This document shows, piece by piece, positions 3,678 through 51,635 of a stretch of 64,000 nucleotides of DNA. The stretch lies in IMG/VR virus record IMGVR_UViG_3300006127_000002. One strand, written 5' to 3'. The DNA is from an uncultured virus (IMG/VR IMGVR_UViG_3300006127_000002) (lineage: Duplodnaviria > Heunggongvirae > Uroviricota > Caudoviricetes). The notes beneath the pieces were generated by a model. That model saw nothing but the letters and a program-made list of their open reading frames with translations. It was not told the origin of the DNA and searched no databases. A program made the translations under genes and the position numbers. Each line of letters begins with the position of its first letter. Position 1 is the first letter of the stretch.

Positions 3678-4871
3678 TCAGTCCTTTACGTGAATAGTTT
3701 TGCCAATCGGTGCAACTACGTTATTACCACCAACGATTGCCCATAACACAGGCACACCCTGCCAATCATCCTCAGTACCCCAGTCATTGATATAACCATC
3801 TGTTAGCACAACCACACACTCAGGCTTTATTGCTTGCGCCTTGAGATATTCCGCCATACAACGAGGGTCAGTACCACCACCGCCACGCATCTTGCCCGCT
3901 TCGATACTGGTTACTGCGTTACCCTCATACACTTCATGCTTCTCAACTGATGAATCCCAATCGATCATGTCGATCTTCTCAGGGCTAACCTCGGATGCAA
4001 TACCCTTAGTCTCTGCCGCTGCCGCTGCCAACTCTGACCCGCCCATGCTTCCAGACGTATCTCTGCCGATAGCAATATGTCCAACCTTTTCCCCAATCAT
4101 CGTAGGCATATATACGTCGCCTGATAAAAATCGTCTGTTCACTCGTCGCCATGATGAAGCATCCTTGTTATTACATACAGCCTTGACAAACTCCCGTAAC
4201 TGCTCACGCCAATCAACTTGCGGTGTAAGCATCTCCTCAACTTCGTGGTTAATGCCACCGTTACCCTTACCAATACGCTTGTTAGCAATAAGCCCAGAGC
4301 GCAGGGCATTGTCCAATTCACGCTCTAACTCACGCTTCTCATCCTCGGATAACTCGGCTGCACCCTCCCAGTCATGCTCATCAAAACCTTCACCACCTTC
4401 ACCGCCATCACCACCTTCGCCTTGCTCTTTCTTTAGTATGTCGAACACTTGCTTAGCGTTCATACCTCGGAACCGTTCATCAACCAAGCCATACACCTTG
4501 CCATCCTTCATTGGCATAGCAATTACTTTCTCGTGCGGGTCTAAGTCTTTGAGTTGCAAGTTAATAACATAGTCACATGCAGCGTTGGCTAAGAGGCGGT
4601 TCTCATCGCTAAGTTTCTTCCACGTAGTCAAGTGCCTATAAGCCTTGTGCATATTCTCATGCAGTACAACGAACGCTAACTCTTTGTCATCGAGGCCATC
4701 GATAAACTTGCGCCCGTACCACTCGTCCCTACCATTAGTCGCTGCGCTAGGAAAGTTATCATCCACACGAGTCTTGCCGACCATCATAATGCCCGACCAC
4801 AATGCAAACTCAGGGTTACGCATCAACGTGATCTTGATCTTTTTCAATCTGCGTTCTTGCTTGTCGTTCAT
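3678..4871 (-). CDS. Putative metallopeptidase (HExxH) + vWA domain protein (DUF2201-like)
   Basis: HENMH zinc motif followed by NAACDYVIN; acidic Gly linker; MIDAS motif DTSGSM, GGGGTD and LTDGY. Likely start ATG 4871 with GAGGAG. Confidence 0.88.
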   Translation of the reverse strand: MNDKQERRLKKIKITLMRNPEFALWSGIMMVGKTRVDDNFPSAATNGRDEWYGRKFIDGLDDKELAFVVLHENMHKAYRHLTTWKKLSDENRLLANAACDYVINLQLKDLDPHEKVIAMPMKDGKVYGLVDERFRGMNAKQVFDILKKEQGEGGDGGEGGEGFDEHDWEGAAELSEDEKRELERELDNALRSGLIANKRIGKGNGGINHEVEEMLTPQVDWREQLREFVKAVCNNKDASSWRRVNRRFLSGDVYMPTMIGEKVGHIAIGRDTSGSMGGSELAAAAAETKGIASEVSPEKIDMIDWDSSVEKHEVYEGNAVTSIEAGKMRGGGGTDPRCMAEYLKAQAIKPECVVVLTDGYINDWGTEDDWQGVPVLWAIVGGNNVVAPIGKTIHVKD

Positions 4872-4872
4872 A

Positions 4873-5061
4873 TCAAAACTCCTCGAAAGTAATACTTGTT
4901 TCACTTACTTTGACGAACTTACCTTTACCTTCTAGTGATTTCTCAATAGTTAGAAACGTATGATCTCTGAAGTCTATGAATCTAACAATTGTTATTCTCC
5001 ATAGGTACGTCATCACTAGCGCCCATATCAGTAGAAACCACTCCGCTATTGTCATGTCCAT
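4873..5061 (-). CDS. Small protein with N-terminal transmembrane segment
   Basis: AEWFLLIWALVMTYLW hydrophobic stretch. Confidence 0.55.
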   Translation of the reverse strand: MDMTIAEWFLLIWALVMTYLWRITIVRFIDFRDHTFLTIEKSLEGKGKFVKVSETSITFEEF

Positions 5062-11870: not shown

Positions 11871-13392
11871 CCAGAACATAGACCTCGACAAAATACCCAG
11901 CATATTGAGTAAATTGTCAGCAGCCGAGCAAAGGCAGTTACTGGTTGAGCTAGATAAGCTAGAAGAGCTTAAGTCTAAAGAGTTATCGCAAAAGAGGTTC
12001 TTGGCATTCGTTGAGAAGGTCTGGCCGTCGTTCATAGCGGGTAGACACCATGCGAGAATGGCTGCAGCATTTGAGGAGGTGGCCAATGGCACCTGTAAGC
12101 GCCTTATTATTAATATGCCTCCTCGTCATACTAAGTCTGAGTTTGCGTCTTATCTTCTTCCAGCTTGGTTCTTGGGTAAGTTCCCGGGTAAAAAAGTTAT
12201 TCAAACGTCTCACACCGCTGAATTGGCTGTTGGTTTTGGTAGGAAAGTTAGAAACTTGGTCGATTCGGAAGTGTATAAGTCAATATTTCCGGGAGTTGGA
12301 CTACAAGCGGACTCTAAAGCTGCTGGCCGGTGGGCGACTAACGCTGGTGGAGACTACTTTGCTATCGGTGTGGGCGGTGCTGTTACGGGTAAGGGCGCAG
12401 ATATCCTCATTATTGACGACCCGCACTCAGAACAAGAAGCAACCATAGCTGAAAATAACCCAGAAGTCTACGATAAAACCTACGAGTGGTACACATCAGG
12501 CCCTCGTCAGCGTCTACAGCCGGGCGGGGCTATCGTTATAGTGATGACTCGCTGGTCAAAACGTGATTTAACAGGGCAAGTTCTCAAATCTTCGCTGGAA
12601 AGAAATGGAGAAGAGTGGAAAGTAATCGAATTTCCTGCAATTTTACCGAGTGGCAACCCACTTTGGCCTGAATTTTGGCCATTAGAACAGTTAGAAGCGC
12701 TAAGACATGAACTTCCTATAGGTAAATGGCAGGCTCAGTACCAGCAACAGCCAACTTCTGACGTAAATGCTATCGTAAAACGTGAGTGGTGGAACATTTG
12801 GGAGGGGGATGGACCCCCTTATTGTGACTTTATCATCCAATCTTGGGATACGGCGTTCCTAAAAACACAGCGAAGTGACTATTCAGCATGCACAACGTGG
12901 GGTGTTTTCTACCATGATGACGATAGGGGCGTGGCGCAAGCCAATATTATCTTATTAAATGCGTTTAAAAAGCGTATGGAGTTTCCGGAACTGAAGCAAA
13001 AAGCGATGGAGCAGTACCAACAATGGGAGCCAGATGCACTTATTGTTGAAGCGAAAGCTTCGGGTGCGCCGCTATTGTTTGAACTTAGAGCGATGGGAAT
13101 ACCGGTGCAGGATTATACTCCCAGTAAAGGCAATGATAAAATTGCCCGATTAAACTCCGTTGCGGATATGTTTGCAAGTGGATTCGTGTGGGTTCCCAAT
13201 ACACATTGGGCAGAAGAGCTTGTAGAAGAGGTGGCCTCATTCCCTTCAGGCGAGCATGATGACTTAGTTGACTCCATGACCCAAGCGTTAATGCGTTTCC
13301 GTAGAGGCGGGTTTATTCGTCTGCAGTCTGACGAACCCGAAGAGATTCGGTATTTTAAATCAAAACGCAACGCTGGGTTTTATAACGTATAG
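11860..13392 (+). CDS. terL: Terminase large subunit
   Basis: INMPPRHTKS Walker A variant, IIDDP Walker B, VMTRW coupling motif, RNase H-like nuclease QSWDTA...HDDLVD. Confidence 0.95.
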   Translation: MQIDQNIDLDKIPSILSKLSAAEQRQLLVELDKLEELKSKELSQKRFLAFVEKVWPSFIAGRHHARMAAAFEEVANGTCKRLIINMPPRHTKSEFASYLLPAWFLGKFPGKKVIQTSHTAELAVGFGRKVRNLVDSEVYKSIFPGVGLQADSKAAGRWATNAGGDYFAIGVGGAVTGKGADILIIDDPHSEQEATIAENNPEVYDKTYEWYTSGPRQRLQPGGAIVIVMTRWSKRDLTGQVLKSSLERNGEEWKVIEFPAILPSGNPLWPEFWPLEQLEALRHELPIGKWQAQYQQQPTSDVNAIVKREWWNIWEGDGPPYCDFIIQSWDTAFLKTQRSDYSACTTWGVFYHDDDRGVAQANIILLNAFKKRMEFPELKQKAMEQYQQWEPDALIVEAKASGAPLLFELRAMGIPVQDYTPSKGNDKIARLNSVADMFASGFVWVPNTHWAEELVEEVASFPSGEHDDLVDSMTQALMRFRRGGFIRLQSDEPEEIRYFKSKRNAGFYNV

Positions 13393-15974: not shown

Positions 15975-16159
15975 CCGAATACGAATATCTTCGTTTCGAG
16001 CTAAAGAAAGAAGTGGATAACAAATCCGAATTCATTGCCGCAGGCAATTGCCAAAGTTTTGACGAGTATAAGCATGTAACAGGGGTTATCCGTGGTCTTG
16101 CCCTTGCTATTGATTTAATCAAAGACCGCGAGCAAAAACTAGAGGACGATAATGGCTGA
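15971..16159 (+). CDS. Small conserved head-module protein
   Basis: Overlaps the portal stop; EYKHVTGVIRGL motif. Confidence 0.7.
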   Translation: MTEYEYLRFELKKEVDNKSEFIAAGNCQSFDEYKHVTGVIRGLALAIDLIKDREQKLEDDNG

Positions 16160-16553
16160 GCTATTAATTAGTGACGCAATGGGTAATATTTCTCAATTGC
16201 CTGAAAAGCAAGAACAGAAAGCAACACAGTTACCCAAACCCGCTGGATATCATATTTTATGTATGGTTCCGGCAGCAGACAACGAATACGAAAGCGGACT
16301 TGTGAAGGCAGAAATGTCTAAGCATTACGAAGAAGTATTGTCCCCTGTCTTATTTGTTGTTTCCATTGGCCCCGATGCTTACGTAGATAAAGAGCGCTTC
16401 CCAAGCGGTCCGCTATGTAAAGAAGGTGACTTCGTTTTAATCCGCCCTAACTCAGGATCACGCATTAAGATTCACGGTCAGGAATTCAGGATTATTAACG
16501 ATGACTCCGTAGAGGCCGTAGTGCAAGACCCTCGCGGCATTAGCCGTGCATAA
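16152..16553 (+). CDS. groES: GroES-like co-chaperonin
   Basis: LPKPAGYHIL..ESGL..VVSIGPDAY..KEGDFVL..SGSRIKIHGQEFRIINDDSVEAVV follows the Cpn10 pattern. Confidence 0.8.
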   Translation: MAELLISDAMGNISQLPEKQEQKATQLPKPAGYHILCMVPAADNEYESGLVKAEMSKHYEEVLSPVLFVVSIGPDAYVDKERFPSGPLCKEGDFVLIRPNSGSRIKIHGQEFRIINDDSVEAVVQDPRGISRA

Positions 16554-29211: not shown

Positions 29212-30204
29212 ATGACGATCACTGTCGATCCAGTAAACGGAATTATTGACACCGGCACAGCGGCTTGGGGTATTCCTTCAGGCACAACGGCTCAACGTCC
29301 ATCTAGCCCAGCTAACGGGTATATGCGTTTTAACACCACGTTGTCTCAGTTCGAGATGTATATTTCTGGTGGCTGGGTATCCGTAGCAAACTCTGGTGGC
29401 GGTACTGGCTCATCGTACCTAATAACATACTTGGTTGTTGGTGGCGGTGGTGGTGGCGGTGCAGGTTATAGCTCGTCATGCGCCGGTGGCGGCGGCGGGG
29501 CTGGGGGTCTTCTTTATGGGACTGCAACGGTAACATCAGGAAGTCTTTACCCGGTCACAGTTGGTGCAGGTGGTACTAAAGGCGTGTATATTTCAAACGG
29601 CGCTACTAGCGGCGGTAATTCAGTACTAACAACTTTAGCAACCGGCTTTGGTGGCGGTCAAGGCGGTAGTTCTGCTGTTAGTTCTAACGCAACGGCTGGT
29701 GGATCAGGTGGTGGGGGCAGTGCAGTTCAAGCCGGTGGAGCAGGAACTACAGGTCAAGGGTACGCTGGGGGAAGCTCTAGTAACGCATCAAACCCGGGAT
29801 GGGGTGGTGGCGGCGGCGGGGCTGGGGGTGTTGGCACTAATGGAACTAGCAGTCTTGGCGGCGCTGGCGGTCCCGGTGCTTTTTATGCAATTACCGGTAC
29901 AAATACAGGTTATGCAGGTGGTGGCGGCGGTGGTGGCGGATCAGGTTCTGGTGGAGCTGGTGGTACGGGTGGAGGCGGCGCTGGTTATGGATATTCTGGT
30001 TCTTCTTCTGCGGTGGCAGGAACGACCAATACTGGTGGCGGTGGCGGTGGTGGAGCGCAAGGTGGTAGTGATGGCGCAAATGGAGCTTCTGGTATTGTTG
30101 TTGTTAGCTATTTAGGTTCGCAACGTGGCACTGGTGGAACGATTACATCGTCAGGCGGTTATACCATTCATACATTTACGACAAGCGGTACTTACACGGC
30201 TTAA
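29212..30204 (+). CDS. Glycine-rich fibre/adhesin paralogue 1
   Basis: GTTAQRP N-terminal module; YLVVGGGGGGG poly-Gly repeats; GYTIHTFTTSGTYTA end. Confidence 0.8.
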   Translation: MTITVDPVNGIIDTGTAAWGIPSGTTAQRPSSPANGYMRFNTTLSQFEMYISGGWVSVANSGGGTGSSYLITYLVVGGGGGGGAGYSSSCAGGGGGAGGLLYGTATVTSGSLYPVTVGAGGTKGVYISNGATSGGNSVLTTLATGFGGGQGGSSAVSSNATAGGSGGGGSAVQAGGAGTTGQGYAGGSSSNASNPGWGGGGGGAGGVGTNGTSSLGGAGGPGAFYAITGTNTGYAGGGGGGGGSGSGGAGGTGGGGAGYGYSGSSSAVAGTTNTGGGGGGGAQGGSDGANGASGIVVVSYLGSQRGTGGTITSSGGYTIHTFTTSGTYTA

Positions 30205-30218
30205 TTCAGGAGAAATCA

Positions 30219-30593
30219 ATGAGCCATTATGCAAAAGTAGTAGACGGCAAAGTGACACAAGTGATTGTTGCTGAAGCTGATTTTTTCAAAACCTTCGTAG
30301 ATACCTCACCCGGTGCTTGGATTCAAACGTCCTATAACACCCGTGGTGGCGTTCATTACGGTCAAGACGGTAAGCCCGATGGTGGCGTAGCCCTGCGTGG
30401 TAACTATGCTGGCATCGGTTACACCTACGATGCAGTTAAAGACGTTTTCTTCGCTCCTCAACCATTCCCAAGCTGGACTCTGAGCAATACAACATGGCTC
30501 TGGGAAGCACCTACTCCAATGCCAACGGACGGAAAGCCGTATGTTTGGGATGAGCCAACACGGGCTTGGAAAGAAATCACAGCTCCTGCTTAA
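30219..30593 (+). CDS. Trp/Pro-rich putative fibre partner or chaperone
   Basis: MSHYAKV..WIQTSYN..RGNYAGIGYTYD..PQPFPSW..WEAPTPMP..YVWDE; lies among the Gly-rich genes. Confidence 0.65.
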   Translation: MSHYAKVVDGKVTQVIVAEADFFKTFVDTSPGAWIQTSYNTRGGVHYGQDGKPDGGVALRGNYAGIGYTYDAVKDVFFAPQPFPSWTLSNTTWLWEAPTPMPTDGKPYVWDEPTRAWKEITAPA

Positions 30594-30602
30594 GGAAGCA
30601 TT

Positions 30603-31604
30603 ATGGCAATTAGCACCATCAGCGCCGCAGCACTTGATGCCACTGGGGTGGGTACTGGAGCTATGCTCGTACCATCAGGAACGACTGCACAACGCCCTGC
30701 CTCACCCGTAGTTGGTATGCAGCGGTGGAACACCACACTTGGGCAATTGGAATCGTGGACGGGCGGATCATGGCAACCAATAGCCACTAATACTTATGCA
30801 ACAACGTATTTGATAGTTGCCGGAGGAGGCGGTGGTGGTGCTGGTGTTACTGGCGTTGGTTATGGCGGTGGTGGTGGCGGTGCTGGTGGTTTTCTTAGCG
30901 CTTCTGCGCTTTTGATTGTTGGAACAGCATACACAGTTACAGTCGGGGCAGGCGGTGCTGGAGCAACTGGGGCAAGCAATAGTTTTATTAACGGTACAGC
31001 AGGCTCAAATTCGTTAATTTCAAGTGTAGCAACTGCAATTGGTGGTGGTTACGGTGGTGGTACATCTTCTGGCGGTACTGGTAGTGCAGGCGGAGCTGGT
31101 GGAAGTGGTGGTGGATCAGGTAATAGTAATGGTTCACCATCTGGCGGTGCTGGTACTTCTGGGCAAGGATATGCAGGTGGCGCAGCGACAGGCTCAAACC
31201 AAGCTGCCGGTGGAGGTGGTGCAAGTGCGGTTGGTGCAAATGCAAACGCTACTTATGGTGGTCCGGGCGGTAATGGAAGTTCATCAGCAATAACTGGTAC
31301 TTCAGTAACTTATGCTGGTGGTGGTGGTGGAGCGAGTTATCAAAATGGTTCTATTGGCGGATCAGGTGGAGGCGGTAATGGTGGTGCTAATGGATCAGGA
31401 ACTGCTGGTACAGCCAACACAGGCGGCGGTGGCGGTGGGTCATGGAACGGAGTTGCAGGATTATCAGGCGGATCAGGTGTTGTCATCATTTCCTATGCAA
31501 ACGCTACTCAGCGTGGAACAGGCGGTACAGTTACACAATACACATCTGGCTCGGTAACTTACTGGGTTCACACCTTTACTTCTAGTGGGACGTATACAGC
31601 ATGA
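30603..31604 (+). CDS. Glycine-rich fibre/adhesin paralogue 2
   Basis: Same architecture as 29212-30204. Confidence 0.8.
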   Translation: MAISTISAAALDATGVGTGAMLVPSGTTAQRPASPVVGMQRWNTTLGQLESWTGGSWQPIATNTYATTYLIVAGGGGGGAGVTGVGYGGGGGGAGGFLSASALLIVGTAYTVTVGAGGAGATGASNSFINGTAGSNSLISSVATAIGGGYGGGTSSGGTGSAGGAGGSGGGSGNSNGSPSGGAGTSGQGYAGGAATGSNQAAGGGGASAVGANANATYGGPGGNGSSSAITGTSVTYAGGGGGASYQNGSIGGSGGGGNGGANGSGTAGTANTGGGGGGSWNGVAGLSGGSGVVIISYANATQRGTGGTVTQYTSGSVTYWVHTFTSSGTYTA

Positions 31605-33064
31605 GCTATATTGGAGCTAGTCCTACCCAAACGGCATTCATCACTGATACATTCACAGGTGATGGCACGACTACTGTTTTTACAATGTCTGTGGCCCCTG
31701 CTAATTCGGCAGCAGTTTTGGTTGCGATTAGCGGTGTATTGCAAGCCCCAACAACGTATTCGGTATCAGGCACAACGCTAACCTTCTCGGCTGCGCCTCC
31801 AACAGGCACGGGCAACATCTCGGTTCGGTATTTGGGCATTCCAGCATCCAACATTACAACGACTGCATACCGGACAGTCACAGAATTCACAGCAACCGCA
31901 GGACAAACGACGTTTACACCAGCATCTTATGTAGCGGGGTTTCTTGATGTCTATCGTAATGGAGTTAAGCTTGGGTCTGCTGATTTCACTGCTACTAACG
32001 GTACTACTGTGGTTCTGGCTGTTGGTGCTACCGCTGGCGACCTTATCACAACCGTAGGCTTTTATGTCTCATCCGTACTAAACGCTATCCCTGCTCAGGC
32101 TGGATCGGTAGTCTCTTCTTATCTTGCATCAGGTGCAGCATCACAGGCATTTTTGGATGTAACAGGTGGATCTGGTACAGGGGCTATGCTTCTCCCAGTG
32201 GGAACAACCGCACAACGACCAACAGGACAACGAGGATTAGTGCGTTTAAACAGCACAACAGGCAACCCTGAGTGGTACGACACAACAACGTCTTCTTGGC
32301 TTCAGTTTTCCCAGCCTGCTGGCTACACGGTTAATTATCTTGTTGTGGCTGGAGGTGGTTCAGGTGGTGCATATTATGGCGGTGGTGGTGGAGCAGGTGG
32401 TTTATTAACTTCATCTGCAACTTTGTCATCAGGTACAGCTTACACAATCACAGTCGGTGCTGGTGGTGCTGCTGTATCTACAAACATTAGCGGAAACGCA
32501 GGAAGCAATAGCGTTATATCTACCATTGCAACAGCAGTTGGTGGAGGTTATGGAGCAGGCTCATCTTCGTCTACTGCGGGTGGTTCCGGTGCTTCTGGAG
32601 GCGGTGGTGCTTCAGGTGGGGCAGGCGGAACAGCCACTTCTGGTCAAGGCTACGCAGGAGGTTCTAGTGCTCCGGCGGGGGGCGGTGGTGGTGGCGCAAG
32701 TGCGGTTGGCGCTAACGGTAGCGGTGCTACTACAGGAGGTAATGGCGGAGCAGGTGCATCATCCTCTATTTCTGGAACTGCTGTAACTTATTCCGGTGGT
32801 GGCGGCGGATCAGGTAATACCACAGGAGGAACTGGCGGTTTAGGCGGCGGTGGTGCAGGTTCTGTTGGTAATGGAACAAATGCAACTGCTAACACGGGAG
32901 GAGGCGGTGGTGGTGCGGGTGGTAGCTATGTCAGTGGCGCAGGCGGTTCAGGCATCGTAATCATCAGCTACCTCGGCTCACAGCGTGGTACTGGCGGTAC
33001 GGTTACATCCTCTGGCGGCTACACAATACATACATTCACAAGCAGTGGAACTTACAATGCTTAA
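31601..33064 (+). CDS. Glycine-rich fibre/adhesin paralogue 3 with two extra N-terminal beta modules
   Basis: FTGDGTTTVF and FTATAGQTTF modules, then GTTAQRP, then poly-Gly domain. Confidence 0.8.
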   Translation: MSYIGASPTQTAFITDTFTGDGTTTVFTMSVAPANSAAVLVAISGVLQAPTTYSVSGTTLTFSAAPPTGTGNISVRYLGIPASNITTTAYRTVTEFTATAGQTTFTPASYVAGFLDVYRNGVKLGSADFTATNGTTVVLAVGATAGDLITTVGFYVSSVLNAIPAQAGSVVSSYLASGAASQAFLDVTGGSGTGAMLLPVGTTAQRPTGQRGLVRLNSTTGNPEWYDTTTSSWLQFSQPAGYTVNYLVVAGGGSGGAYYGGGGGAGGLLTSSATLSSGTAYTITVGAGGAAVSTNISGNAGSNSVISTIATAVGGGYGAGSSSSTAGGSGASGGGGASGGAGGTATSGQGYAGGSSAPAGGGGGGASAVGANGSGATTGGNGGAGASSSISGTAVTYSGGGGGSGNTTGGTGGLGGGGAGSVGNGTNATANTGGGGGGAGGSYVSGAGGSGIVIISYLGSQRGTGGTVTSSGGYTIHTFTSSGTYNA

Positions 33065-33073
33065 GGAAATTAA

Positions 33074-34018
33074 ATGACTCAGGCAAATAACGTCGCAGCA
33101 TCTACTCCTCCTAGTTGGACAACAGCTAACCGTCCGGCTTCGCCTGTCGTGGGTCAACAGGGTTGGAATACTACTTTGGGGCAGCTTGAGGTTTATGTTG
33201 GGTCAAGTACTTGGGTCTCTTCCACCAGTTTGATTTATTCAGCTAGCTATCTTATTGTTGGCGGGGGTGGTCCGGGGCAAAGCATAGGCGGCGGTGGTGG
33301 AGCTGGTGGAGTTTTACCGGGTACGTTGGTTTTATCTACAGGTACGACTTACACGGTCACGGTAGGTGCTGGGGCAGCGAGTGGAGCTTCTAGTAATGGG
33401 AGTAACTCAAGCATCACGACATCAAACGCATACAACATAAACTTGATAGCTTATGGCGGTGGTTATTACCAAATTGCCGGTGGGTCAGGTGGCGGCGGTG
33501 GTAGAAAACGTGATGACATGGGTGAACAAATACCCGGTCAAGGAACTACCGGGCAGGGGAACCAAGGTGGCGCAGGAAGTTCATCCGGTGGAACTGATGG
33601 TTTTGGTGTTGGCGGTGGAGGTGGTGGAGCAGGTGCACCCGGTAATTTAGCCATTGGAAGCACTGCTGGTGCTGGTGGAACTGGATTAGCGTCTTCAATC
33701 ACAGGGTCATCTGTTTATTATGGCGGCGGTGGTGGTGGCGGTGGATATGGCGCAACTGCTGGTGCTGGTGGAACAGGTGGAGGCGGTTCGGGTACTGGAA
33801 CGAATAGCGCTGTAGGAACTGCTGGTACTGCTAATACAGGTGGCGGAGGAGGTGGTAGTGGACTGGGTGCAAACGGTGCTGCTGGAGGTTCTGGAGTCGT
33901 TATTCTTTCCGTGCCAACAGCAAACTATTCTGGCATCACCACAGGTTCACCTACAGTTACTACGAGTGGCAGTAATACGATTGTTAAGTTCACCTCATCA
34001 GGCACATACACGGCGTAA
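33074..34018 (+). CDS. Glycine-rich fibre/adhesin paralogue 4
   Basis: WTTANRP module plus poly-Gly domain; KFTSSGTYTA end. Confidence 0.8.
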   Translation: MTQANNVAASTPPSWTTANRPASPVVGQQGWNTTLGQLEVYVGSSTWVSSTSLIYSASYLIVGGGGPGQSIGGGGGAGGVLPGTLVLSTGTTYTVTVGAGAASGASSNGSNSSITTSNAYNINLIAYGGGYYQIAGGSGGGGGRKRDDMGEQIPGQGTTGQGNQGGAGSSSGGTDGFGVGGGGGGAGAPGNLAIGSTAGAGGTGLASSITGSSVYYGGGGGGGGYGATAGAGGTGGGGSGTGTNSAVGTAGTANTGGGGGGSGLGANGAAGGSGVVILSVPTANYSGITTGSPTVTTSGSNTIVKFTSSGTYTA

Positions 34019-39488: not shown

Positions 39489-40100
39489 ATGAAACTCGTA
39501 TACCGTACTGGGCAGGTGTTTGGAAAGTTAACTGTGATTGAACAAGCCGGGCGTGACCGATTAAAGAAAGTGTTATGGCGGTGTAAGTGTGAATGTGGTA
39601 ACGAATCAATAGTAGTATCTGGTAGCTTGGTAACAGGCAATACGATATCATGTGGTTGTGACAAAGGAAATTACAAACATGGTGGAACAGGCAAAGGTTC
39701 TTATAATACGTGGCGAGCAATGATTAGACGATGCACAATTCCAACAGATAAAGACTACCCTAACTATGGAGGTAAAGGGGTGACTGTTTGTCCCGCATGG
39801 ATGGATTATCGCAATTTTGCTGTTGACATGGGTGAGCCACAAGGCGATGAAACGCTTGATCGTATTGACACATATGGAAATTACGAGCCAGACAACTGCC
39901 GCTGGGCATCACCAAGAACGCAAGCTAGAAATATTCGCATTCCAAAAGCAAGCAAAACCGGTGTAACTGGAGTTTTGTTCCATAATGGAAAATATTACGC
40001 AACGATAACTGTTAAAAAAAAGAAATATTATTCGTCAATCTGTAGTACCGTAGAAGAAGCCGCAGCAGCCCGTAAAGAACTTGAAGCAAGGTATTGGTAA
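39489..40100 (+). CDS. HNH-family homing endonuclease with C-terminal AP2-like domain
   Basis: WRCKCECG, TLDRIDTYGNYEPDNCRWA..QARN, TGVTGV...EEAAAARK. Confidence 0.88.
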   Translation: MKLVYRTGQVFGKLTVIEQAGRDRLKKVLWRCKCECGNESIVVSGSLVTGNTISCGCDKGNYKHGGTGKGSYNTWRAMIRRCTIPTDKDYPNYGGKGVTVCPAWMDYRNFAVDMGEPQGDETLDRIDTYGNYEPDNCRWASPRTQARNIRIPKASKTGVTGVLFHNGKYYATITVKKKKYYSSICSTVEEAAAARKELEARYW

Positions 40101-45299: not shown

Positions 45300-48200
45300 G
45301 TGGTGATGGTACAAGAATTTACCCCACAAGAACTTGGTATACAAGCTCAAAAAGAATATACCCCTGAAGAACTTGGTATAACTACCAAACAAAAAGAATA
45401 CACACCTGAGGAGCTTGGTGTTATCCCTAAGGTAGAAGAACCCAGTGCGCAACAAGGGCCTAAAACACAAAACCCTTTTATGGGTCTAGCATCAAGAGCT
45501 GCTAGTCTAGCTGGTGAAGGTGTAGAAGGTGTAGCAAGAGTAGCTGAAAATGTTGGGGACTATCTTGAATCTAAACTTCCTATATCAGGTGTATCTGAAG
45601 AAGATTTAAAGAATAAACAACAATTACAACCTTTGTTTGATTTTGCAAAGTCCCTAAAAGATTGGGGTAAAGATATCGGCTATGCGCCTACCACAACATT
45701 GGGGGAATTGCCCGGTAAACCTCTTCTGTTAGTTCCGTTTATTGCTGAAAGGATCATATCTTCCTCTCCAGATATGGCAGCTGCTATGGTGGCTAGCCCT
45801 GCGTATATAACAGCCCGTACTAATGAAATACTAAATAACCGCCTCCAGAACGACAAAAAATCTTTAGAGGATGCAACAGTTGCCGACGTTGCCACTTCCG
45901 CTGCCGGAGCCGTGGTTGAGACTTACCTAGAAAGATTTGCTACTAAAGGGTTGTTAAAAGGACAACACGTAACCGGGGCTACTGCTGGTACGAGAATAGC
46001 TAAAGAGGCCGGTATACAGTTTGGTACGGAAGCTGCCGAAGAAGTTGCATCTGGATTAGCTGAAACGGTTGGTACAGAAAAGGGTGTAGACCCAAAAGAG
46101 CTAGCATTGCAAGCGTTGGAAGCTGGTATTGTTGGGGGTGGTTTAGGTGCAACAGTTCAAGGGGGTAAGGAAGTATTTACCCAGCAAGGGCAACAAGCAG
46201 CGCCACCGCCCGGACCAAAGGTAGAATCTGCTGCAGGTACACCAATACCTACAATGCCCCTTGATACGGCAGAGAAACAAGGGCAAGCACAAGCTGCAGG
46301 ACAGACAATTCCACAAACTCCTGTTAAAGTAGATGAAAAGGCAGTACTAGATTTAGCTGTTGAGCTTGAGCAGGAATATGGCATCCCTAAAGATACCGCC
46401 GTAGCGATGGCTCGTCAAAGATTAGAAGGGGAGTTAAATGGAAGACCACCTACTAGAGTTGACACCGGAACAAGTGAGCAAGGCGTTTCATTGCCTAGCG
46501 ATGGAGGAACCACCGCCGGAGGACCTGAGGCACTTAGTCCTGAACGATTGGCTAGCGTTAGCGGACCTGCTGGACGGGTTGATGAAGGAGAAGGACTTCA
46601 GCCAAGTGCATTAGCACCAGAAGTATCCGAAGTAGATGCAAAAGCTGCGCAGTTAAGAGAAGCTGAAATAAAGCTTGTAGAAGCAGATACGCCTGAAATT
46701 AAGAAAGAAGCGCAGGTTGAAGTTAACAAGGCTAGACAAGAGCTAAAGAAGGCGGAAGCTAAACTAGAAAAAGCTGAAACCACAACTGAGGTAACTCCAG
46801 TAACTGCAATACCAACCGCACCAGAAGAAGTTGCGGCTACCCCGCCAGTAGCCCAAGTTACACCAAAAAATGCGCAACAAGAAGAAGTTGCTCCCGCCAC
46901 AGAAACCGCAATAAACCCATCAACTAAAAAATGGTTTGGTAATAGTAAAGCTGTAGATAGTGAGGGTAAACCATTAGTTTTATATCGGGGGTTAGTAGGT
47001 GGGGCAGTTGACCCGTTTTCTGGGAGACCCGGATATGCAATTTTTACTTCAGACAACCCATACATAGCTTCGTCTTATGCAGGAGACCCTACCGCAGAAT
47101 TTGGGGTAACTGGTGGGGTTGTATACCCCATGTACGCTAAAGTTGACAACGTAACTGAGTTTCAATTAGATAGGAATGGGTTATTTGATAAATTTGAATT
47201 CGATAAAAAAGCACGTACCTTAAAACCCGGAGAAGCATTAGTAGCCAGAAATGTAATGGATACTGGACCACGTATGTCTTCAAGTATGGCGCAAGGATAT
47301 GCCAAAAAAAGTGGGGATGTTTGGGCATTTGGTAACGGTACTAAATTTCAATCAGCTATAGCTGAGCCAGTTGTAGAAAAGAAAGCAAGAACGCCGTTAC
47401 AAAAAGCACAAGCAAAGACTGCTAATGCAGAAAGCCGATACGCAGACAAGCTAATAAGTGACCTTGCGGTTGAACCAAACAATCTAGAAGAGGCCGAAAG
47501 CCTTGAGCAAGCTGCTTCTTGGGATAAAACAAATAAAACCCAACGTAACAATCTGGTTGAAGGTTTGGTTGAGCTTACACAAAGACCTCACAAAGCGGCA
47601 AAAGAAAAAGCTGCCGCTGCACTGACTGCAAATAATGTAACCCCAGAAGAGGTAGCCCTAGCCAAGGATCGTATCGCTGCTAAGAAAAAAGCAAATATCC
47701 CGACGGTTCTTGAACAGCATAGGATTGATAATCCACCACGTAAACGGAAAGCAAAAGAACTTGCACCTAACGCCAAATTATCAGATAGAGTTTCTCTTGC
47801 TGCGCAGTTAGTAGATTTGGTAAGGGGCGCTAGGCTTGCAGCTTATAAGACCGCAACGGCTGCTATAGATCATATAGTAAAGACCGGGAATGCTTTTGAA
47901 AGGACTCTTGCCCAACGCCTAAAACCATTCCTAAAAGATGTCAATTACATAGTTGCACAATCAGAAGCAGACTTACCTGATATCTCCCTGCGTGACGGAC
48001 AAAGTTTAAAAGACAAGTTTAAAGACGCCAACGGTATTTACTTTACGACCGAAGATGGCAAAAAGTATTTGATTTTACGGGGCGATAAGTTTGAAGGTGG
48101 TGGCGGGTTAACCTTTAAAACATTCCTGCATGAAGCCGTGCATGGTGCAACCATTGAGCAGATTGCAGAATACGAAAGAGCAGTTGCAGAAGGACTCCCA

Positions 48201-51200
48201 GTAGACCCACGCCTTGAACGGTTAATAACTGAGCTTAAAGATATCGTCGATGAGACGGCAGCAGCGTATACAGAAGCCAAAATGATGGGGCAAGAAGTCC
48301 CTGCTGCACTAGATAGATTGTTCTCTGCTCGCAAAAAAGGCGGCGTAGGCATATTAGACGACTTAAAAGAATTTGTTGCCTATGGTATGACTGAGCCTGA
48401 TGTGCAAGAGTTCTTAGCTAATACCCAAGGTAAAGCAAAGCAAGGTGCGCCGGGGTTCTTTAAGAATCTGTTTACTAAATTTGTACGTGCGCTAGCTAAC
48501 GCATTCGGTATGCCCGAAGGAAGTGTTAACGCTTTCCAAGACTTGATGCTTGTTACCGAAGGGCTGATGCAGTATACGCCTAAAGATGTCAAGGCTGTAG
48601 AAGGTGCGGCAGAAAAACTTGATAAGGTTCAAGAAAAAGTAGATGCGGACCTAAAAAAGCTGGAGCTATCAAAAGACGCTACGGAAATGACGGGGCTATT
48701 AGGTGGCCTTGCACGTTCACGTAATGCACAAGATTTTAATGACTTAATGAACGCCAGCCTCCCTGCTATGGGTAATGCGTTTATAACTAAGTTATTAGGT
48801 GCTATGCAATCGGTGGATATCGTGCGTTGGATGGGGGATAAGATACCTGCGCTTAAACGCATAGACGATACAACCCAACATATGTCTGCAATGCGTATCA
48901 ATATGCGGGCGGCTTTTTCTAAGAAGGCTGAACAAATAAGCAAGTTTATTCGTAGTGCTAAAAATGCTAAGAATACTCTTGCTGATGCCATGCACTTAGC
49001 TCGTCTAGTAGGTATAAGTCCTGTAGAACATGCGAATGCTAATGACGCTATTAAGAACGATAGCCAACTGAATTCCCTTAGGGCTACTCTAAATGACCCC
49101 AACATAAACGAAGCTACCCGTAAAGCTACCCAATCAGAAATAGATACTCGCACTGCAGGTATCCAAGAGGTCTATAAAAAATGGGATGCGCTAGGTGAGT
49201 TTAAGGGTGGACATGATATTTATAAAATGGTTCGTAAGTTCTACAAAGACAACTACGAATTAACTAGACATCTGCTTGACCGTAGAATCAACTCGATGCA
49301 AATTGAAGGCAGTATAAATGACCCTAATACGCCAAAAGGAAAGTTGATGGCAGCGGTTCGCCAAATGCAAGAAGAGGCGGATAAAAAGGGTGAGTACTTT
49401 CCATTTATGCGTGAAGGCAACTACTGGTTGCGGGTGAACGGACCTAAAGGTAGAGAATTTTATTTATTCGAATCTGGTACTGCACGTAACTTATTCTTGC
49501 TCAAACGTGCTAGAGATTTGGGCGTAGACAATAAGAGCGATATATTTAAAGCTGGCGACAACATGGGCGCATTGCGCAACGAATTCAGTGGCGAGAGTAA
49601 GATGCTAACTGATATGTTCTCTGCAATCGATGCGGCTACTGCAAAGACGGACTTTGATAAAGAAGCTCTTAAGGATCAGTTATACCAGACGTACTTGATG
49701 ACTCTTCCAGAAAAGAGCTTCCGTAAGCAATTCTTACATGCTGACAAAGTAACTGGTTTCAGTTCGGATGTGTTGCGCAACTTTAAAGTATCTGCAACCC
49801 GTATGGCTAACCAAGCTGCTAAGTTGCGTTATGGTTCTGACCTAGAAAATGAATTGCAAAGCGGTCGTGACAACCTAGAAGGCATGCCCGCACAAGCTCG
49901 TGCTAAATATGAGCTGTTTATAAACGAGTTCAAGCAAAGAGCTATGCAAGAAATGAACCCTCCTGAGCAGGGCTTCTTAACAACGAAGATAAACCAATTT
50001 GCTTACTACTGGCTTCTTACCAGCGCAGCGTCTGCAGCTACGCAACTTGCGTCTGTCCCCATCATGGTTATGCCAACACTAAACCAACAGTATGGTTATG
50101 GCGCTGCCGCTAAGAAGTTTGCCAAGTACGCTAACATATTTAAAGCCGTTGGGGTTAACAAAGTAGAAGCTAACGGAGACGTTACCCATACATCACCTTC
50201 AATAGGTTCTTCTTCGATTGTTAGGGGTAGCGATCTAGCCCAACGTGCATTCCAAGAGGCGGTGGATAGAGGGCTTACTACAACTACTAATACGTCTATC
50301 CTTACAAATCGTAACCGTACTCCGTCTAATATTGCAGAGAGCGTTGCCGGTGCAGCACTACAAAAGACTGCCCGTGTTATGTCTGCTTTGTTTAACGGAG
50401 CTGAACGTCTTAGCCGTGAAATGACTTACATGATGACGTTCGAGCTTGAATACGAAAAGACCAAAGACTTCGAAGCGTCGGTACAAAAAGCTATTGATAC
50501 CACTCAAGAATTGCTAGGCCGTTACGACAACTTTAACCGTCCTCGCTATATGCAGAACTTTGTAGGTAAAACGCTTGGGCAGTTTAAGATGTATGCAGTT
50601 AACATGACTTCGTTCTTTGTACGTAATATGTACCACGCAATGAATGTGACTAATCCTAAGGAAATGCTGCCAGCTCTCCATCGCTTAAGTGGGGTACTGG
50701 TTATGGGTGGTATGTTCCACGGGTTAGTTGGTATGCCTCTGTACAGCACAATATGTGCAGCAATTGATGCCGCTATGGATATGTTTGGCGACGAAGAAGA
50801 AAAGAAAAAGCGCCGCCGCAAGAATCCGTTAACCGCTGATAATTCCGATTTACGGTTCCGTTATGAATTCTTACCAAAAATGTTCGGTACACCTACAATT
50901 ACTGGGCTGGACGGTAAAGAGCATACACTAGCTAAAATATTAGAAAAAGGTGCAATTTCTGAGCTGACTGACATGAACATCGGTTCACGTACCTCTTTTG
51001 ATGGTTTATGGTTCCGTGGTGCAAAGGAAGGCAAAACTGCTTTAGAGACCGTACAGAACTATGTACTAGCTAACTTAGGCCCCGGTGTATCAACTGGTAT
51101 TAATATGGTAGGGGCATTAGATGATTTCCATAACGGGCAGATATTGCGTGGGTTAGAGAAGCTCGTACCTGCGTTCTTCCGTGGTGCAGTAACTGCTGAG

Positions 51201-51635
51201 AGACTAAGAGAAGAGGGTGCTACAACCAAAACAGGATTGCCGGTACTAAAAAAAGACGAAATAACTCCAATTACATTAGCTGCTCAAACGCTAGGATTTC
51301 AAAGCACTCGATTATCTAGTCGCCAAGAGGCTAACTTCAATCTAATGAAAGAAGAGATAAAAGCCTCCAGAGAACGCACGGATGTGCTTAAGCAATTAGA
51401 CACAGCGCTGCTTGAAAAAAATAAAGATAACAAAGATATCCAAAAAGCAATTAATCAGATACGACAGTTTAATAATAGGTATCCCGCAGAGAAATATATT
51501 ATTACGCCGGACACTATAACAAATTCTATCAAAGCCGCTGTGGAGAAAAGAGGGTTATCGTTCCACGGAATGCAGATAGATAAAAAATTAGCTCCGTACC
51601 TGATACCAACGCTCAAGAACGCTTCTCCCAAATAA
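45300..51635 (+). CDS. Giant polyvalent/ejection protein: ADP-ribosyltransferase-like domain, zincin HExxH domain, helical C-terminal region
   Basis: WFGNSKAVDSEGKPLVLYRG..IFTSDNPYIASSYA..VYPMY (about 46925-47355); FLHEAVHG...EFVAYG (about 48123-48390). True start may be ATG 45306. Confidence 0.8.
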   Translation: MVMVQEFTPQELGIQAQKEYTPEELGITTKQKEYTPEELGVIPKVEEPSAQQGPKTQNPFMGLASRAASLAGEGVEGVARVAENVGDYLESKLPISGVSEEDLKNKQQLQPLFDFAKSLKDWGKDIGYAPTTTLGELPGKPLLLVPFIAERIISSSPDMAAAMVASPAYITARTNEILNNRLQNDKKSLEDATVADVATSAAGAVVETYLERFATKGLLKGQHVTGATAGTRIAKEAGIQFGTEAAEEVASGLAETVGTEKGVDPKELALQALEAGIVGGGLGATVQGGKEVFTQQGQQAAPPPGPKVESAAGTPIPTMPLDTAEKQGQAQAAGQTIPQTPVKVDEKAVLDLAVELEQEYGIPKDTAVAMARQRLEGELNGRPPTRVDTGTSEQGVSLPSDGGTTAGGPEALSPERLASVSGPAGRVDEGEGLQPSALAPEVSEVDAKAAQLREAEIKLVEADTPEIKKEAQVEVNKARQELKKAEAKLEKAETTTEVTPVTAIPTAPEEVAATPPVAQVTPKNAQQEEVAPATETAINPSTKKWFGNSKAVDSEGKPLVLYRGLVGGAVDPFSGRPGYAIFTSDNPYIASSYAGDPTAEFGVTGGVVYPMYAKVDNVTEFQLDRNGLFDKFEFDKKARTLKPGEALVARNVMDTGPRMSSSMAQGYAKKSGDVWAFGNGTKFQSAIAEPVVEKKARTPLQKAQAKTANAESRYADKLISDLAVEPNNLEEAESLEQAASWDKTNKTQRNNLVEGLVELTQRPHKAAKEKAAAALTANNVTPEEVALAKDRIAAKKKANIPTVLEQHRIDNPPRKRKAKELAPNAKLSDRVSLAAQLVDLVRGARLAAYKTATAAIDHIVKTGNAFERTLAQRLKPFLKDVNYIVAQSEADLPDISLRDGQSLKDKFKDANGIYFTTEDGKKYLILRGDKFEGGGGLTFKTFLHEAVHGATIEQIAEYERAVAEGLPVDPRLERLITELKDIVDETAAAYTEAKMMGQEVPAALDRLFSARKKGGVGILDDLKEFVAYGMTEPDVQEFLANTQGKAKQGAPGFFKNLFTKFVRALANAFGMPEGSVNAFQDLMLVTEGLMQYTPKDVKAVEGAAEKLDKVQEKVDADLKKLELSKDATEMTGLLGGLARSRNAQDFNDLMNASLPAMGNAFITKLLGAMQSVDIVRWMGDKIPALKRIDDTTQHMSAMRINMRAAFSKKAEQISKFIRSAKNAKNTLADAMHLARLVGISPVEHANANDAIKNDSQLNSLRATLNDPNINEATRKATQSEIDTRTAGIQEVYKKWDALGEFKGGHDIYKMVRKFYKDNYELTRHLLDRRINSMQIEGSINDPNTPKGKLMAAVRQMQEEADKKGEYFPFMREGNYWLRVNGPKGREFYLFESGTARNLFLLKRARDLGVDNKSDIFKAGDNMGALRNEFSGESKMLTDMFSAIDAATAKTDFDKEALKDQLYQTYLMTLPEKSFRKQFLHADKVTGFSSDVLRNFKVSATRMANQAAKLRYGSDLENELQSGRDNLEGMPAQARAKYELFINEFKQRAMQEMNPPEQGFLTTKINQFAYYWLLTSAASAATQLASVPIMVMPTLNQQYGYGAAAKKFAKYANIFKAVGVNKVEANGDVTHTSPSIGSSSIVRGSDLAQRAFQEAVDRGLTTTTNTSILTNRNRTPSNIAESVAGAALQKTARVMSALFNGAERLSREMTYMMTFELEYEKTKDFEASVQKAIDTTQELLGRYDNFNRPRYMQNFVGKTLGQFKMYAVNMTSFFVRNMYHAMNVTNPKEMLPALHRLSGVLVMGGMFHGLVGMPLYSTICAAIDAAMDMFGDEEEKKKRRRKNPLTADNSDLRFRYEFLPKMFGTPTITGLDGKEHTLAKILEKGAISELTDMNIGSRTSFDGLWFRGAKEGKTALETVQNYVLANLGPGVSTGINMVGALDDFHNGQILRGLEKLVPAFFRGAVTAERLREEGATTKTGLPVLKKDEITPITLAAQTLGFQSTRLSSRQEANFNLMKEEIKASRERTDVLKQLDTALLEKNKDNKDIQKAINQIRQFNNRYPAEKYIITPDTITNSIKAAVEKRGLSFHGMQIDKKLAPYLIPTLKNASPK
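45311..45423 (+). repeat. Three tandem repeats encoding E[FY]TP[QE]ELG[IV]
   Basis: QEFTPQELGI / KEYTPEELGI / KEYTPEELGV. Confidence 0.8.
46438..46614 (+). CDS. Candidate nested (+1 frame) 58-aa protein inside the giant gene
   Basis: AAGGGGAG RBS then ATG; MEDHLLELTPEQVSKAFHCLAMEEPPPEDLRHLVLNDWLALADLLDGLMKEKDFSQVH. Confidence 0.5.
   Translation: MEDHLLELTPEQVSKAFHCLAMEEPPPEDLRHLVLNDWLALADLLDGLMKEKDFSQVH

What the first reader, a model, noticed from the sequence alone, without database searches (positions are those of the whole stretch)
46426..46614. Hidden out-of-frame gene nested in the giant protein, just upstream of its ADP-ribosyltransferase-like domain
Seen: AAGGGGAG-ttaa-ATG at 46438 opens a 58-codon +1-frame ORF (MEDHLLELTPEQVSKAFHCLAMEEPPPEDLRHLVLNDWLALADLLDGLMKEKDFSQVH, TAG at 46612-46614), below the ORF-track cutoff. 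The nested frame reads as an acidic, Leu-rich amphipathic helical protein, while the host frame over the same interval is a disordered G/P/S/R linker; that is the pattern expected of overprinting. The ART-like domain starts about 300 nt later. Inference: a co-translated inhibitor/antitoxin or chaperone that keeps an injected enzymatic domain quiet in the producing cell.
Basis: partly seen in the sequence, partly recalled or inferred. Interest (0 to 1): 0.76.

Follow-up and report, generated by a model that had tools for sequence, protein, structure and literature searches.

The report
Hidden gene inside phage giant protein
A 58-codon reading frame hidden out of frame inside a phage's giant injected-type protein is a real, widely conserved small gene, so the same DNA encodes two proteins; what the small protein does is still unknown.

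Summary
In this one sequence it is not beyond chance. Comparison settles it. The same small protein sits in the +1 frame of a giant ORF in all 37 non-redundant phage loci examined. 33 of 37 have SD plus start, against 8% at control positions. In seven independent close pairs, 79 of 111 differences are silent in the nested frame and 11 in the host frame (p=1.6e-16). The host-frame translation of this stretch is not detectably conserved, yet it stays open through codon choice. A profile finds 367 protein clusters (mostly 50-75 aa). There is no Pfam or PHROG family, no name and no convincing fold match. It is a true dual-coding gene in a disordered linker of a polyvalent (LPD39, DarB-like) virion-module protein. 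The ART-antitoxin idea is not supported: only 4 of 22 host proteins carry the ART-like domain. Function is inferred only. Most likely it is a dedicated partner of the giant protein, or else an independent effector. No expression data exist.

The parts
46426..46433 (+). Shine-Dalgarno-like site AAGGGGAG, 4 nt upstream of the nested ATG
   Evidence: The sequence is shown. An SD core (GGAG, GAGG or AGGA) 4-11 nt upstream of a start codon at the matching position occurs in 33 of 37 non-redundant homologous loci, against 7.9% at control +1-frame positions in the same host genes. Homology with a divergent environmental contig (run X3, record 7) begins at 46427.
46438..46614 (+). Nested +1-frame gene: 58 codons plus TAG. 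It encodes an acidic (pI 4.48) helical protein (P0002).
   Evidence: The ORF is conserved in the +1 frame of a giant ORF in 37 of 37 non-redundant loci. Purifying selection acts on this frame. AlphaFold2 on 100 family members gives pLDDT 83.2, with helices at residues 10-22 and 35-55.
46434..46619 (+). Host-frame linker (residues 379-440 of the giant protein). It is rich in G, P, S, T, A and E, is kept open, and is not conserved in sequence.
   Evidence: phmmer and tblastn with this host-frame stretch find only the window itself. Host third codon positions are the most conserved here (0.413 differences per site against 0.633 in the N-terminal domain). P(host frame open | nested protein kept, codons resampled) has a median of 0.016 over 37 loci.
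45300..51635 (+). Host gene: a 2111-aa polyvalent giant protein, the last gene of the + strand virion module
   Evidence: The ORF is listed. Pfam LPD39 matches residues 1164-1336 (33 bits, cut-off 27). PHROG 10089 'DarB-like antirestriction' matches residues 1352-2099 (E 5.6e-52). The upstream genes are terminase, portal, head, tail fibres and an ejection protein.
45462..46181 (+). Conserved N-terminal domain of the host protein (residues 55-294). It served as the unbiased probe for relatives.
   Evidence: It is 50-59% identical in L003, L058, L059, L062, L063 and L064. Its codon-position differences follow the normal pattern, 0.339/0.235/0.633.
46956..47210 (+). ART-like region of the host protein (best Pfam stretch, residues 553-637)
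   Evidence: Pfam ART-PolyVal gives E 0.0041 and 18.3 bits, below the cut-off of 31.2. The region has relatives in about 50 viral loci. No PDB sequence matches it.
49353..51596 (+). C-terminal DarB-like / PLxRFG-type region of the host protein (residues 1352-2099)
   Evidence: PHROG 10089 matches it. It is about 25% identical to the giant proteins of cultured podophages such as Skulduggery, LASTA, PEp14 and PBC5.

Best explanation
Positions 46438-46614 are a real protein-coding gene embedded in the +1 frame of the phage's giant polyvalent protein gene. SHOWN: the DNA is dual-coding. The nested frame carries the amino-acid-level purifying selection. The host frame is only kept open and reads as a flexible linker between the N-terminal domain and the effector-type domains. 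Each homologue has its own Shine-Dalgarno site and a start codon (ATG, GTG or TTG) a few codons before the conserved motif. INFERRED from that: ribosomes start internally on the late mRNA that also encodes the giant protein. No promoter-like site precedes the ORF. The product is about 60 aa, acidic, with two main helices (consensus EL-PE-VS-AF-CL ... P--L--L----W--L--LL--L--E---S-VH-stop). It belongs to a large family that has no name and no Pfam or PHROG family. INFERRED, about 35-40%: the small protein is a dedicated partner of the giant protein, for example a holding, assembly or packaging factor. The grounds are that it was never seen outside such a gene and that it stays when the surrounding domains change. 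The known parallels are the embedded Rz1/Rz pair and the accessory proteins that P1 DarB needs. About 30%: it is instead an independent small effector that merely uses the free coding space of the linker.
For: (1) Unbiased relatives were found with the host N-terminal domain only. Four of the 5 informative ones (L003, L058/L061, L059, L062) carry a homologous +1 ORF at the same place.
(2) Searches seeded with the peptide gave 17 loci and 15 loci. In 17 of 17 and 15 of 15 the ORF lies in the +1 frame of an ORF of 534 to over 2700 codons. After removing 3 duplicates from 40 loci, 37 non-redundant loci remain.
(3) SD plus start at the right place occurs in 33 of 37 loci (ATG in 28). The control rate is 7.9% (2.2% for ATG).
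(4) Codon positions in 5 divergent sequences: host positions 1/2/3 differ at 0.509/0.545/0.413 inside the ORF, against 0.339/0.235/0.633 in the N-terminal domain.
(5) Seven independent close pairs give 111 differences. 79 are silent only in the nested frame, 11 only in the host frame, 20 in neither and 1 in both. The expected counts are 29/34/47/0.6, and the binomial p is 1.6e-16. All 11 close pairs give 158/47/61/1.
(6) Mean pairwise identity is 0.361 in the nested frame and 0.217 in the host frame. The nested frame is higher in 640 of 666 pairs. The host-frame stretch finds only itself by phmmer and tblastn, while the nested peptide finds 55 of 123 stored loci.
(7) Both frames are kept open. 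P(+1 open) is 0.036-0.194 per unbiased relative. P(host open | nested protein kept) has a median of 0.016. T at nested third positions is 5%, against 33% elsewhere.
(8) Environmental variants: 13 variable sites lie inside the ORF. 11 are at nested position 3, 9 are nested-silent and 11 change the host residue. Outside the ORF, 5 of 8 are host-silent.
(9) A profile search finds 367 clusters at E<=1e-3, mostly 50-75 aa. The fold is confident (pLDDT 83.2).
(10) Each of 4 complete phage genomes has exactly one copy, the nested one.
(11) Negative control: the other +1 ORF (50245-50424) is conserved in 0 loci.
Against: There is no evidence of expression: no RNA run holds the sequence, and there is no proteomic or Ribo-seq data. 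All carriers are uncultivated metagenomic phages of unknown host. Five cultured phages with related giant proteins lack the gene. One relative with the same N-terminal domain (L063) lacks it within the 4.4 kb available, so it is not indispensable. Four of 37 loci lack a strict SD core in the test window. The peptide-seeded loci are biased towards carriers. That would weaken the 'dedicated partner' inference. No partner is shown. No host-protein domain co-occurs universally: the N-terminal domain is in 9 of 22 hosts and the DarB-like C-terminus in 12 of 22.
Confidence: 0.88

Rival explanations
1. The small protein is an independent effector, for example an acidic inhibitor of a host defence or of another host target. 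It only uses the unconstrained linker of the giant gene as free coding space and for late or packaged co-expression. It has no functional tie to the giant protein.
For: The family is acidic: median pI 4.68, and 87 of 100 members are below 5.5, like many small phage inhibitor proteins (general knowledge, not tested). No domain of the host protein co-occurs with it universally. Polyvalent proteins are collections of conflict-related domains (PMC5512222, passages read).
Against: It was never seen outside a giant ORF in the 37 non-redundant loci, and each of the 4 complete genomes has a single copy. An independent effector would be expected to occur as an ordinary gene as well. It sits in the late virion module, not among early genes.
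Confidence: 0.3
2. This is the first reader's reading: a co-translated antitoxin or immunity protein that keeps the neighbouring ADP-ribosyltransferase-like domain inactive in the producing cell.
For: In the window the ORF lies about 340 nt upstream of a weak ART-PolyVal match. Three more distant carriers (L004, L007, L013) also have the ART-like region.
Against: The ART-like region is present in only 4 of 22 host proteins. Pfam finds no ART at E<=1e-3 in 12 of 12 complete carrier proteins, which have LPD38, LPD39 or HATPase instead. Only 3 of 52 ART-bearing loci fetched carry the nested peptide within the 3 kb flanks. Pfam antitoxin families match only 2 of 100 family members, at E>=0.11. The ART assignment itself is below Pfam's cut-off.
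Confidence: 0.06
3. There is no separate gene. A programmed +1 ribosomal frameshift, stimulated by the internal SD, makes a truncated product in which the N-terminal part of the giant protein is fused to the conserved +1 peptide.
For: Internal SD sequences are known stimulators of frameshifting in prfB and dnaX (recalled, not from a call). One database protein (P0115, 149 aa) reads host frame first and nested frame afterwards.
Against: A start codon follows the SD at initiation spacing in 33 of 37 loci. A stop codon lies immediately before the start in the nested frame in the window, L003, L062 and L083. A shift would therefore have to occur within a few non-conserved codons. The segment between the start and the first conserved motif varies in length and sequence among loci. 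P0115 joins the frames inside the conserved peptide, as a 1-nt indel or an assembly error would.
Confidence: 0.04
4. The ORF is a chance open frame in a G+C-richer, low-complexity linker, or the conservation reflects an RNA or DNA element and not a protein.
For: In the single sequence the ORF is unremarkable (P 0.069-0.172). Linkers rich in G, A and P have few +1 stops.
Against: Substitutions show three-base periodicity in the nested frame. The start, the stop and the SD are conserved. The peptide family is recognisable at 30-40% identity while the host-frame peptide is not. The control ORF is not conserved. An RNA or DNA element would not give silent-site periodicity.
Confidence: 0.02

Closest known systems
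Embedded Rz1 gene inside Rz (phage spanin genes)
   Same: A small gene lies wholly inside a larger phage gene in the +1 frame, with its own start. The arrangement is described in the passage of PMC9144972 read and in the abstract listing of PMC5295617. In that pair the two products work together, which is the basis for the partner inference.
   Different: Rz1 is a secreted outer-membrane lipoprotein of the lysis cassette. The protein here is acidic and helical, with no hydrophobic N-terminus or lipobox. It lies in a virion-module giant protein. There is no sequence similarity (no Pfam or PHROG match).
Classical overprinted genes of small phages (phiX174 E in D, K, B in A; MS2 L)
   Same: The DNA is dual-coding and a short new protein is read from a shifted frame of an older gene (general knowledge; review PMC8227390 seen only as a search listing and abstract).
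   Different: Those occur in very small genomes under size pressure. Here the genome is about 60-74 kb. The overlapped host segment is a sequence-unconstrained linker. The same nested gene recurs in host proteins with different domain sets.
Polyvalent proteins of phages (Iyer et al. 2017) and DarB-like giant virion proteins of Bcep22-like podophages
   Same: The host gene carries LPD39 and a DarB-like C-terminus, and it sits at the end of the virion module. JC1's DarB-like gp69 is virion-associated by mass spectrometry, and P1 DarB needs accessory proteins (passages of PMC9144972). Polyvalent proteins are predicted to be packaged and injected (passages of PMC5512222).
   Different: In PMC5512222 the term 'overlapping gene' has 0 occurrences (search listing), and the passages I read do not mention a nested gene. 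Five cultured relatives lack this gene.
Type II antitoxins and immunity proteins of toxin domains
   Same: They are small, acidic, helical proteins encoded next to an enzymatic, possibly toxic, domain.
   Different: The nested gene's distribution does not follow the ART-like domain (4 of 22 hosts). There is no match to antitoxin families above noise.

Membership tests
Functional overlapping (overprinted) gene | The alternative-frame ORF, with its start and stop, is conserved in divergent homologues. | tested here: met
   It is present in 4 of 5 informative relatives found without reference to the ORF and in 37 of 37 non-redundant loci overall. SD plus start occurs in 33 of 37 loci, against 7.9% at control positions.
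Functional overlapping (overprinted) gene | Purifying selection acts on the alternative frame, seen as suppressed variation at the host's synonymous sites. | tested here: met
   The host third position differs at 0.413 inside the ORF against 0.633 outside. Of 111 differences, 79 are nested-silent and 11 host-silent, p 1.6e-16. Population variants: 11 of 13 fall at nested position 3.
Functional overlapping (overprinted) gene | There is evidence of translation (Ribo-seq or peptides). | not testable with these tools
   No RNA run holds the sequence. No proteomic data are available for these uncultivated phages.
Embedded Rz1-type spanin subunit | The gene lies wholly inside another phage gene in the +1 frame. 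| tested here: met
Embedded Rz1-type spanin subunit | It has a lipoprotein signal peptide with a lipobox Cys, and its host gene is Rz in a lysis cassette. | tested here: not met
   The peptide starts MEDHLLELTPEQ, is acidic, and has no hydrophobic N-terminal stretch (by inspection, no signal-peptide predictor was run). The host is a polyvalent virion-module protein.
Antitoxin / immunity protein of the ART-like domain | It consistently co-occurs with the toxin domain. | tested here: not met
   The ART-like region is in 4 of 22 host proteins. Pfam finds no ART in 12 of 12 complete carriers at E<=1e-3.
Antitoxin / immunity protein of the ART-like domain | It physically neutralises the domain. | not tested
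Polyvalent protein (host gene; Iyer et al. 2017) | A large multidomain protein with LPD-type domains, encoded among virion genes. | tested here: met
   LPD39 scores 33 bits against a cut-off of 27. The DarB-like PHROG matches at E 5.6e-52. The gene order is terminase, portal, head, tail fibres, ejection protein, then the giant gene.
Polyvalent protein (host gene; Iyer et al. 2017) | It has an ART-PolyVal domain. | tested here: inconclusive
   The match scores 18.3 bits, below the cut-off of 31.2 (E 0.0041). No PDB sequence matches the region.
Homeodomain / Myb-like three-helix fold (nested protein) | Structural superposition clearly above background. | tested here: inconclusive
   The best VIA-align Z is 5.0 (rmsd 2.8, 54 aligned; DUX4 homeodomain). 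By the tool's own note this is within the range of common helical arrangements. Foldseek against PDB and BFVD gives no hit at E<=1e-3.

The most novel reading that the evidence does not exclude
The nested gene and its dual-coding linker form a cassette that moves between otherwise unrelated giant polyvalent proteins. Homology with a divergent contig starts right at the SD. The gene encodes a universal small adaptor or chaperone that such injected giant proteins need in order to be folded, held inactive, or loaded into the capsid. That would be a previously unseen 'gene within the effector' layer of phage polyvalent-protein biology, invisible to standard gene callers.
Probability: 0.3. Interest if true: 0.88.

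Novelty: new variant of a known kind. Interest (0 to 1): 0.8.

Why it matters
Out-of-frame embedded genes are known in phages, but they are few, and most were found by genetics. This one is a large, uncharacterised family: 367 clusters at 50% identity in a library of 1.84 billion representatives, with only 'hypothetical protein' labels where any name exists. In every case I could inspect, it is hidden inside the giant polyvalent proteins thought to be injected with the DNA. Standard annotation misses it. The evolutionary signal is unusually clean, so it gives a concrete, testable candidate for an accessory factor of giant virion proteins, or else for a new small effector. It also shows that 'disordered linkers' of such proteins can be coding in a second frame. 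That matters for annotating phage genomes and for engineering these proteins.

Tried and rejected
- DNA search of the 5' 3 kb of the host gene against cultured phages found no match. tblastn of the peptide against the same collection found no match at E<=1.
- The family HMM run on six-frame translations of five cultured phages with related giant proteins gave nothing better than E 0.9. These were Vibrio 41E34.2, Pseudomonas Skulduggery, Klebsiella LASTA, Vibrio 1F273_PE002 and Thalassomonas BA3. BA3's annotated nested CDSs are not homologues.
- The genome-contig scan with the peptide alignment gave 193 pattern matches, none confirmed. No prophage or host was found.
- Pfam and PHROGs on 100 members found no family. 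The word-indexed protein search gave 15 hits, either named 'hypothetical protein' or unnamed. The ESM Atlas gave no usable hit.
- Foldseek against PDB and BFVD gave no hit at E<=1e-3. VIA-align wide gave a best Z of 5.0 to homeodomain/Myb-like domains, at noise level.
- The complex prediction of a homodimer (alignment A6, 2 copies) returned 'no answer'. It is not used as evidence either way.
- Sequencing runs: no RNA holder is listed.
- Promoter scan: no + strand sigma-70-like site lies upstream of the ORF. The host's promoter type is unknown.
- A look-up of earlier findings of this scan by sequence returned nothing.
- Three literature searches listed no paper describing a gene nested in a polyvalent or DarB-like protein. 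The library covers open-access papers only.
- The record of L063, the relative without the nested gene, is not held. I therefore could not check whether it has a stand-alone copy elsewhere.
Full report
**Observation**

The window carries AAGGGGAG at 46426-46433, then TTAA, then ATG at 46438. There follow 58 sense codons (MEDHLLELTPEQVSKAFHCLAMEEPPPEDLRHLVLNDWLALADLLDGLMKEKDFSQVH) and TAG at 46612-46614. The ORF is in the +1 frame of a 2111-codon ORF at 45300-51635. In this sequence alone it is not remarkable. If the host protein is kept and its codons are resampled, the +1 frame stays open in 6.9% of trials. If host codons are shuffled, it stays open in 17.2%. A second +1 ORF of 59 codons exists at 50245-50424.

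**The host gene and the phage**

The host protein has Pfam LPD39 at residues 1164-1336 (33 bits, cut-off 27). It has a sub-threshold ART-PolyVal match at residues 553-637 (18.3 bits, cut-off 31.2). Its C-terminal 750 residues match the PHROG 'DarB-like antirestriction' (E 5.6e-52). It is the last gene of a + strand block that holds terminase, portal, head protein, tail fibres, a virion structural protein and an ejection-protein-like gene. Replication genes follow on the other strand.

The C-terminus is about 25% identical to the giant 'DarB-like/PLxRFG' proteins of cultured roughly 60-kb podophages. The N-terminal domain is about 30% identical to giant proteins of roughly 36-kb Vibrio, Shewanella and Thalassomonas phages. 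In Bcep22-like phage JC1 the DarB-like giant protein is virion-associated by mass spectrometry, and P1 DarB needs accessory proteins (passages of PMC9144972). Polyvalent proteins are predicted to be packaged and injected (passages of PMC5512222).

The window's own assembly is not held. The nearest record, G001, is a 100% identical fragment. The DNA occurs in freshwater metagenome runs.

**Unbiased comparative test**

I searched viral and metagenome contigs with the host-frame N-terminal domain only (residues 55-294), so the hits did not depend on the nested ORF. Besides the window's own contig, this gave L003/L057, L058 (and its near-identical twin L061), L059, L062, L063 and L064, at 50-59% identity.

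L003, L058, L059 and L062 each have a + strand ORF in the +1 frame of the giant ORF, 350-400 codons from its start. Their peptides align with the window's: ELxPExVSxAFxCL ... P..L..L....W..L..LL..L..E......H-stop. L063 lacks it and has a Pro/Thr-rich linker with a small inserted domain instead. L064 ends too early to tell. So 4 of 5 informative relatives keep the ORF. The per-locus chance of an open +1 frame is 0.036-0.194.

**Wider family**

An HMM of five peptides also hit the +1 frame of giant ORFs in three loci that had been fetched only for their ART-like domain: L004, L007 and L013. Two scans of viral contigs, seeded with two sub-families of the peptide, gave 17 and 15 further loci. In 17 of 17 and 15 of 15 the peptide ORF lies in the +1 frame of an open frame of 534 to 2716 codons.

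Of 40 loci, 3 had duplicate cores, leaving 37 non-redundant loci. Four complete phage genomes (60-74 kb) each have exactly one match, the nested one. A profile search of 1.84 billion representative proteins gave 367 hits at E<=1e-3 and 13 at E<=1e-10. Among the 150 listed, most are 50-75 aa. Two that I looked at (P0082, P0151) are repeat proteins and probably spurious. Where a source gives a name, it is 'hypothetical protein'. I could not see the DNA context of these database proteins.

**Which frame is selected**

- In five divergent sequences, the per-site difference at host codon positions 1/2/3 is 0.509/0.545/0.413 inside the nested ORF. In the N-terminal domain of the same genes it is 0.339/0.235/0.633. 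So the host's 'silent' position is the most conserved one, and it is the nested frame's second position.
- Among 11 close pairs (267 differences), 158 are silent only in the nested frame, 47 only in the host frame, 61 in neither and 1 in both. The expected counts at kappa 2 are 69/81/116/1.5.
- Seven phylogenetically independent pairs give 79/11/20/1 of 111, against 29/34/47/0.6 expected. The binomial p is 1.6e-16.
- Mean pairwise amino-acid identity is 0.361 in the nested frame and 0.217 in the host frame. The nested frame is higher in 640 of 666 pairs.
- The host-frame translation of the interval finds only itself, by phmmer among 22 host proteins and by tblastn among 123 stored loci. The nested peptide finds 55 of those loci.
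- The control +1 ORF at 50245-50424 behaves the opposite way: 0 loci for the +1 peptide and 2 for the host frame.

**Independent population check**

Contigs from four other runs were laid on the region. They show 13 variable sites inside the ORF. 11 are at nested position 3, 9 are nested-silent and 11 change the host residue. Outside the ORF, 5 of 8 sites are host-silent third positions. These are low-depth contigs, and most of the sites come from one contig. That contig (X3 record 7) matches the window only from 46427, which is from the SD onwards, and is unlike it upstream.

**Both frames are kept**

T makes up only 5% of nested third positions, against 33% at third positions elsewhere in the host genes. 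If the nested protein is kept and its codons are redrawn from normal usage, the host frame stays open in a median of 1.6% of trials. The giant ORF is therefore also maintained through the cassette, as a linker of free sequence.

**Initiation**

An SD core (GGAG, GAGG or AGGA) 4-11 nt before an ATG, GTG or TTG, in the 22-codon window ahead of the conserved motif, is present in 33 of 37 loci (ATG in 28). At other +1-frame positions of the same host genes the rate is 7.9% (2.2% for ATG). The four misses have weaker AAGG/AAAGGG sites or a start just outside the test window.

The start codon type changes between loci while the SD stays. In several loci a stop codon directly precedes the start. This argues for independent initiation and against a frameshift fusion. 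No sigma-70-like promoter lies upstream, so translation from the late polycistronic mRNA is inferred.

**The protein**

In 100 aligned members the median length is 61 aa and the median pI is 4.68. L30 and W38 are invariant. L8, A16, P27, L33 and L45 are nearly invariant. The last residue is His in 87 of 100 members. AlphaFold2 with this alignment gives pLDDT 83.2, with helices at residues 10-22 and 35-55. No Pfam or PHROG family matches, and there is no significant structural neighbour.

**Function**

The ART-antitoxin idea fails on distribution. The ART-like region occurs in 4 of 22 host proteins. The 12 complete carrier proteins scanned have LPD39 or LPD38, two of them also HATPase, and none has ART at E<=1e-3. 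No single host domain is universal: the N-terminal domain is in 9 of 22 hosts and the DarB-like C-terminus in 12 of 22.

The constant feature is the embedding itself, in the N-terminal third of a giant virion-module protein. Embedded Rz1/Rz encode partners, and P1 DarB needs helper proteins. By analogy I judge a dedicated partner of the giant protein (holding, assembly or packaging factor) the most likely role, at about 35-40%. An independent small acidic effector comes next, at about 30%. None of this is shown.

**Limits**

- There are no expression data.
- All carriers are uncultivated.
- The peptide-seeded loci are biased towards carriers.
- Stand-alone copies cannot be excluded.
- Supplementary files of the cited papers were not consulted.

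Noticed in passing
window 50245-50424 (+): This is a second +1-frame ORF of 59 codons inside the same giant gene. Unlike the finding, its peptide has no counterpart in any of 123 stored loci, while the host frame over it is conserved. It looks like a chance ORF and served as a negative control.
   Followed up: yes
L063:3740-8188 and L064:1779-3059: These relatives have the same N-terminal domain (about 50% identity) but lack the nested gene. In its place they have a Pro/Thr/Ala-rich linker with a small conserved inserted segment (…GGYTNP…GTF…DEAN…). Whether their genomes carry a stand-alone copy could not be checked, because the record is not held.
   Followed up: partly
P0115 (149-aa database protein): This predicted protein reads like the host frame (G/T/A-rich) in its first part and like the nested family (…LAWQERDGHEVEIKIPPSLHHLTKEEWEQVCQILSYLLWQQENSQIH) in its last part. 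It may be a 1-nt indel or assembly error, or a natural fused variant.
   Followed up: no
L125 (Thalassomonas phage BA3, EU124666.1): 13022-13354 and 16115-16459: The deposited annotation already lists two small same-strand CDSs (BA3_0004, BA3_0003) nested inside the giant gene BA3_0002. They do not match the family HMM. Whether they are real nested genes of another kind is open.
   Followed up: partly
window 29212-34018 (+): Four consecutive genes (330, 333, 487 and 314 aa) all match the same PHROG 2295 over their C-terminal about 270 residues. This is a run of paralogous tail-fibre-like genes.
   Followed up: no
window 39489-40100 (+) and 3678-4904 (-): There are two HNH endonuclease genes. 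One lies inside the virion module between a structural protein gene and the ejection-protein region.
   Followed up: no
window 46427-46612, run X3 record 7: A 650-nt environmental contig matches the window only over the SD plus the nested ORF (19 differences in 186 nt) and is unlike it upstream of 46427. This suggests the nested gene is an island shared between otherwise different giant genes.
   Followed up: partly
L004:3353-3634; P0005, P0031, P0157, P0160: This is a sub-family of the nested protein with a longer first half (…W(E/Q)LAL.VV.KAW…/…LAWQER.G.EVE…) that looks like a partial internal duplication of the P..L..L....W motif.
   Followed up: no
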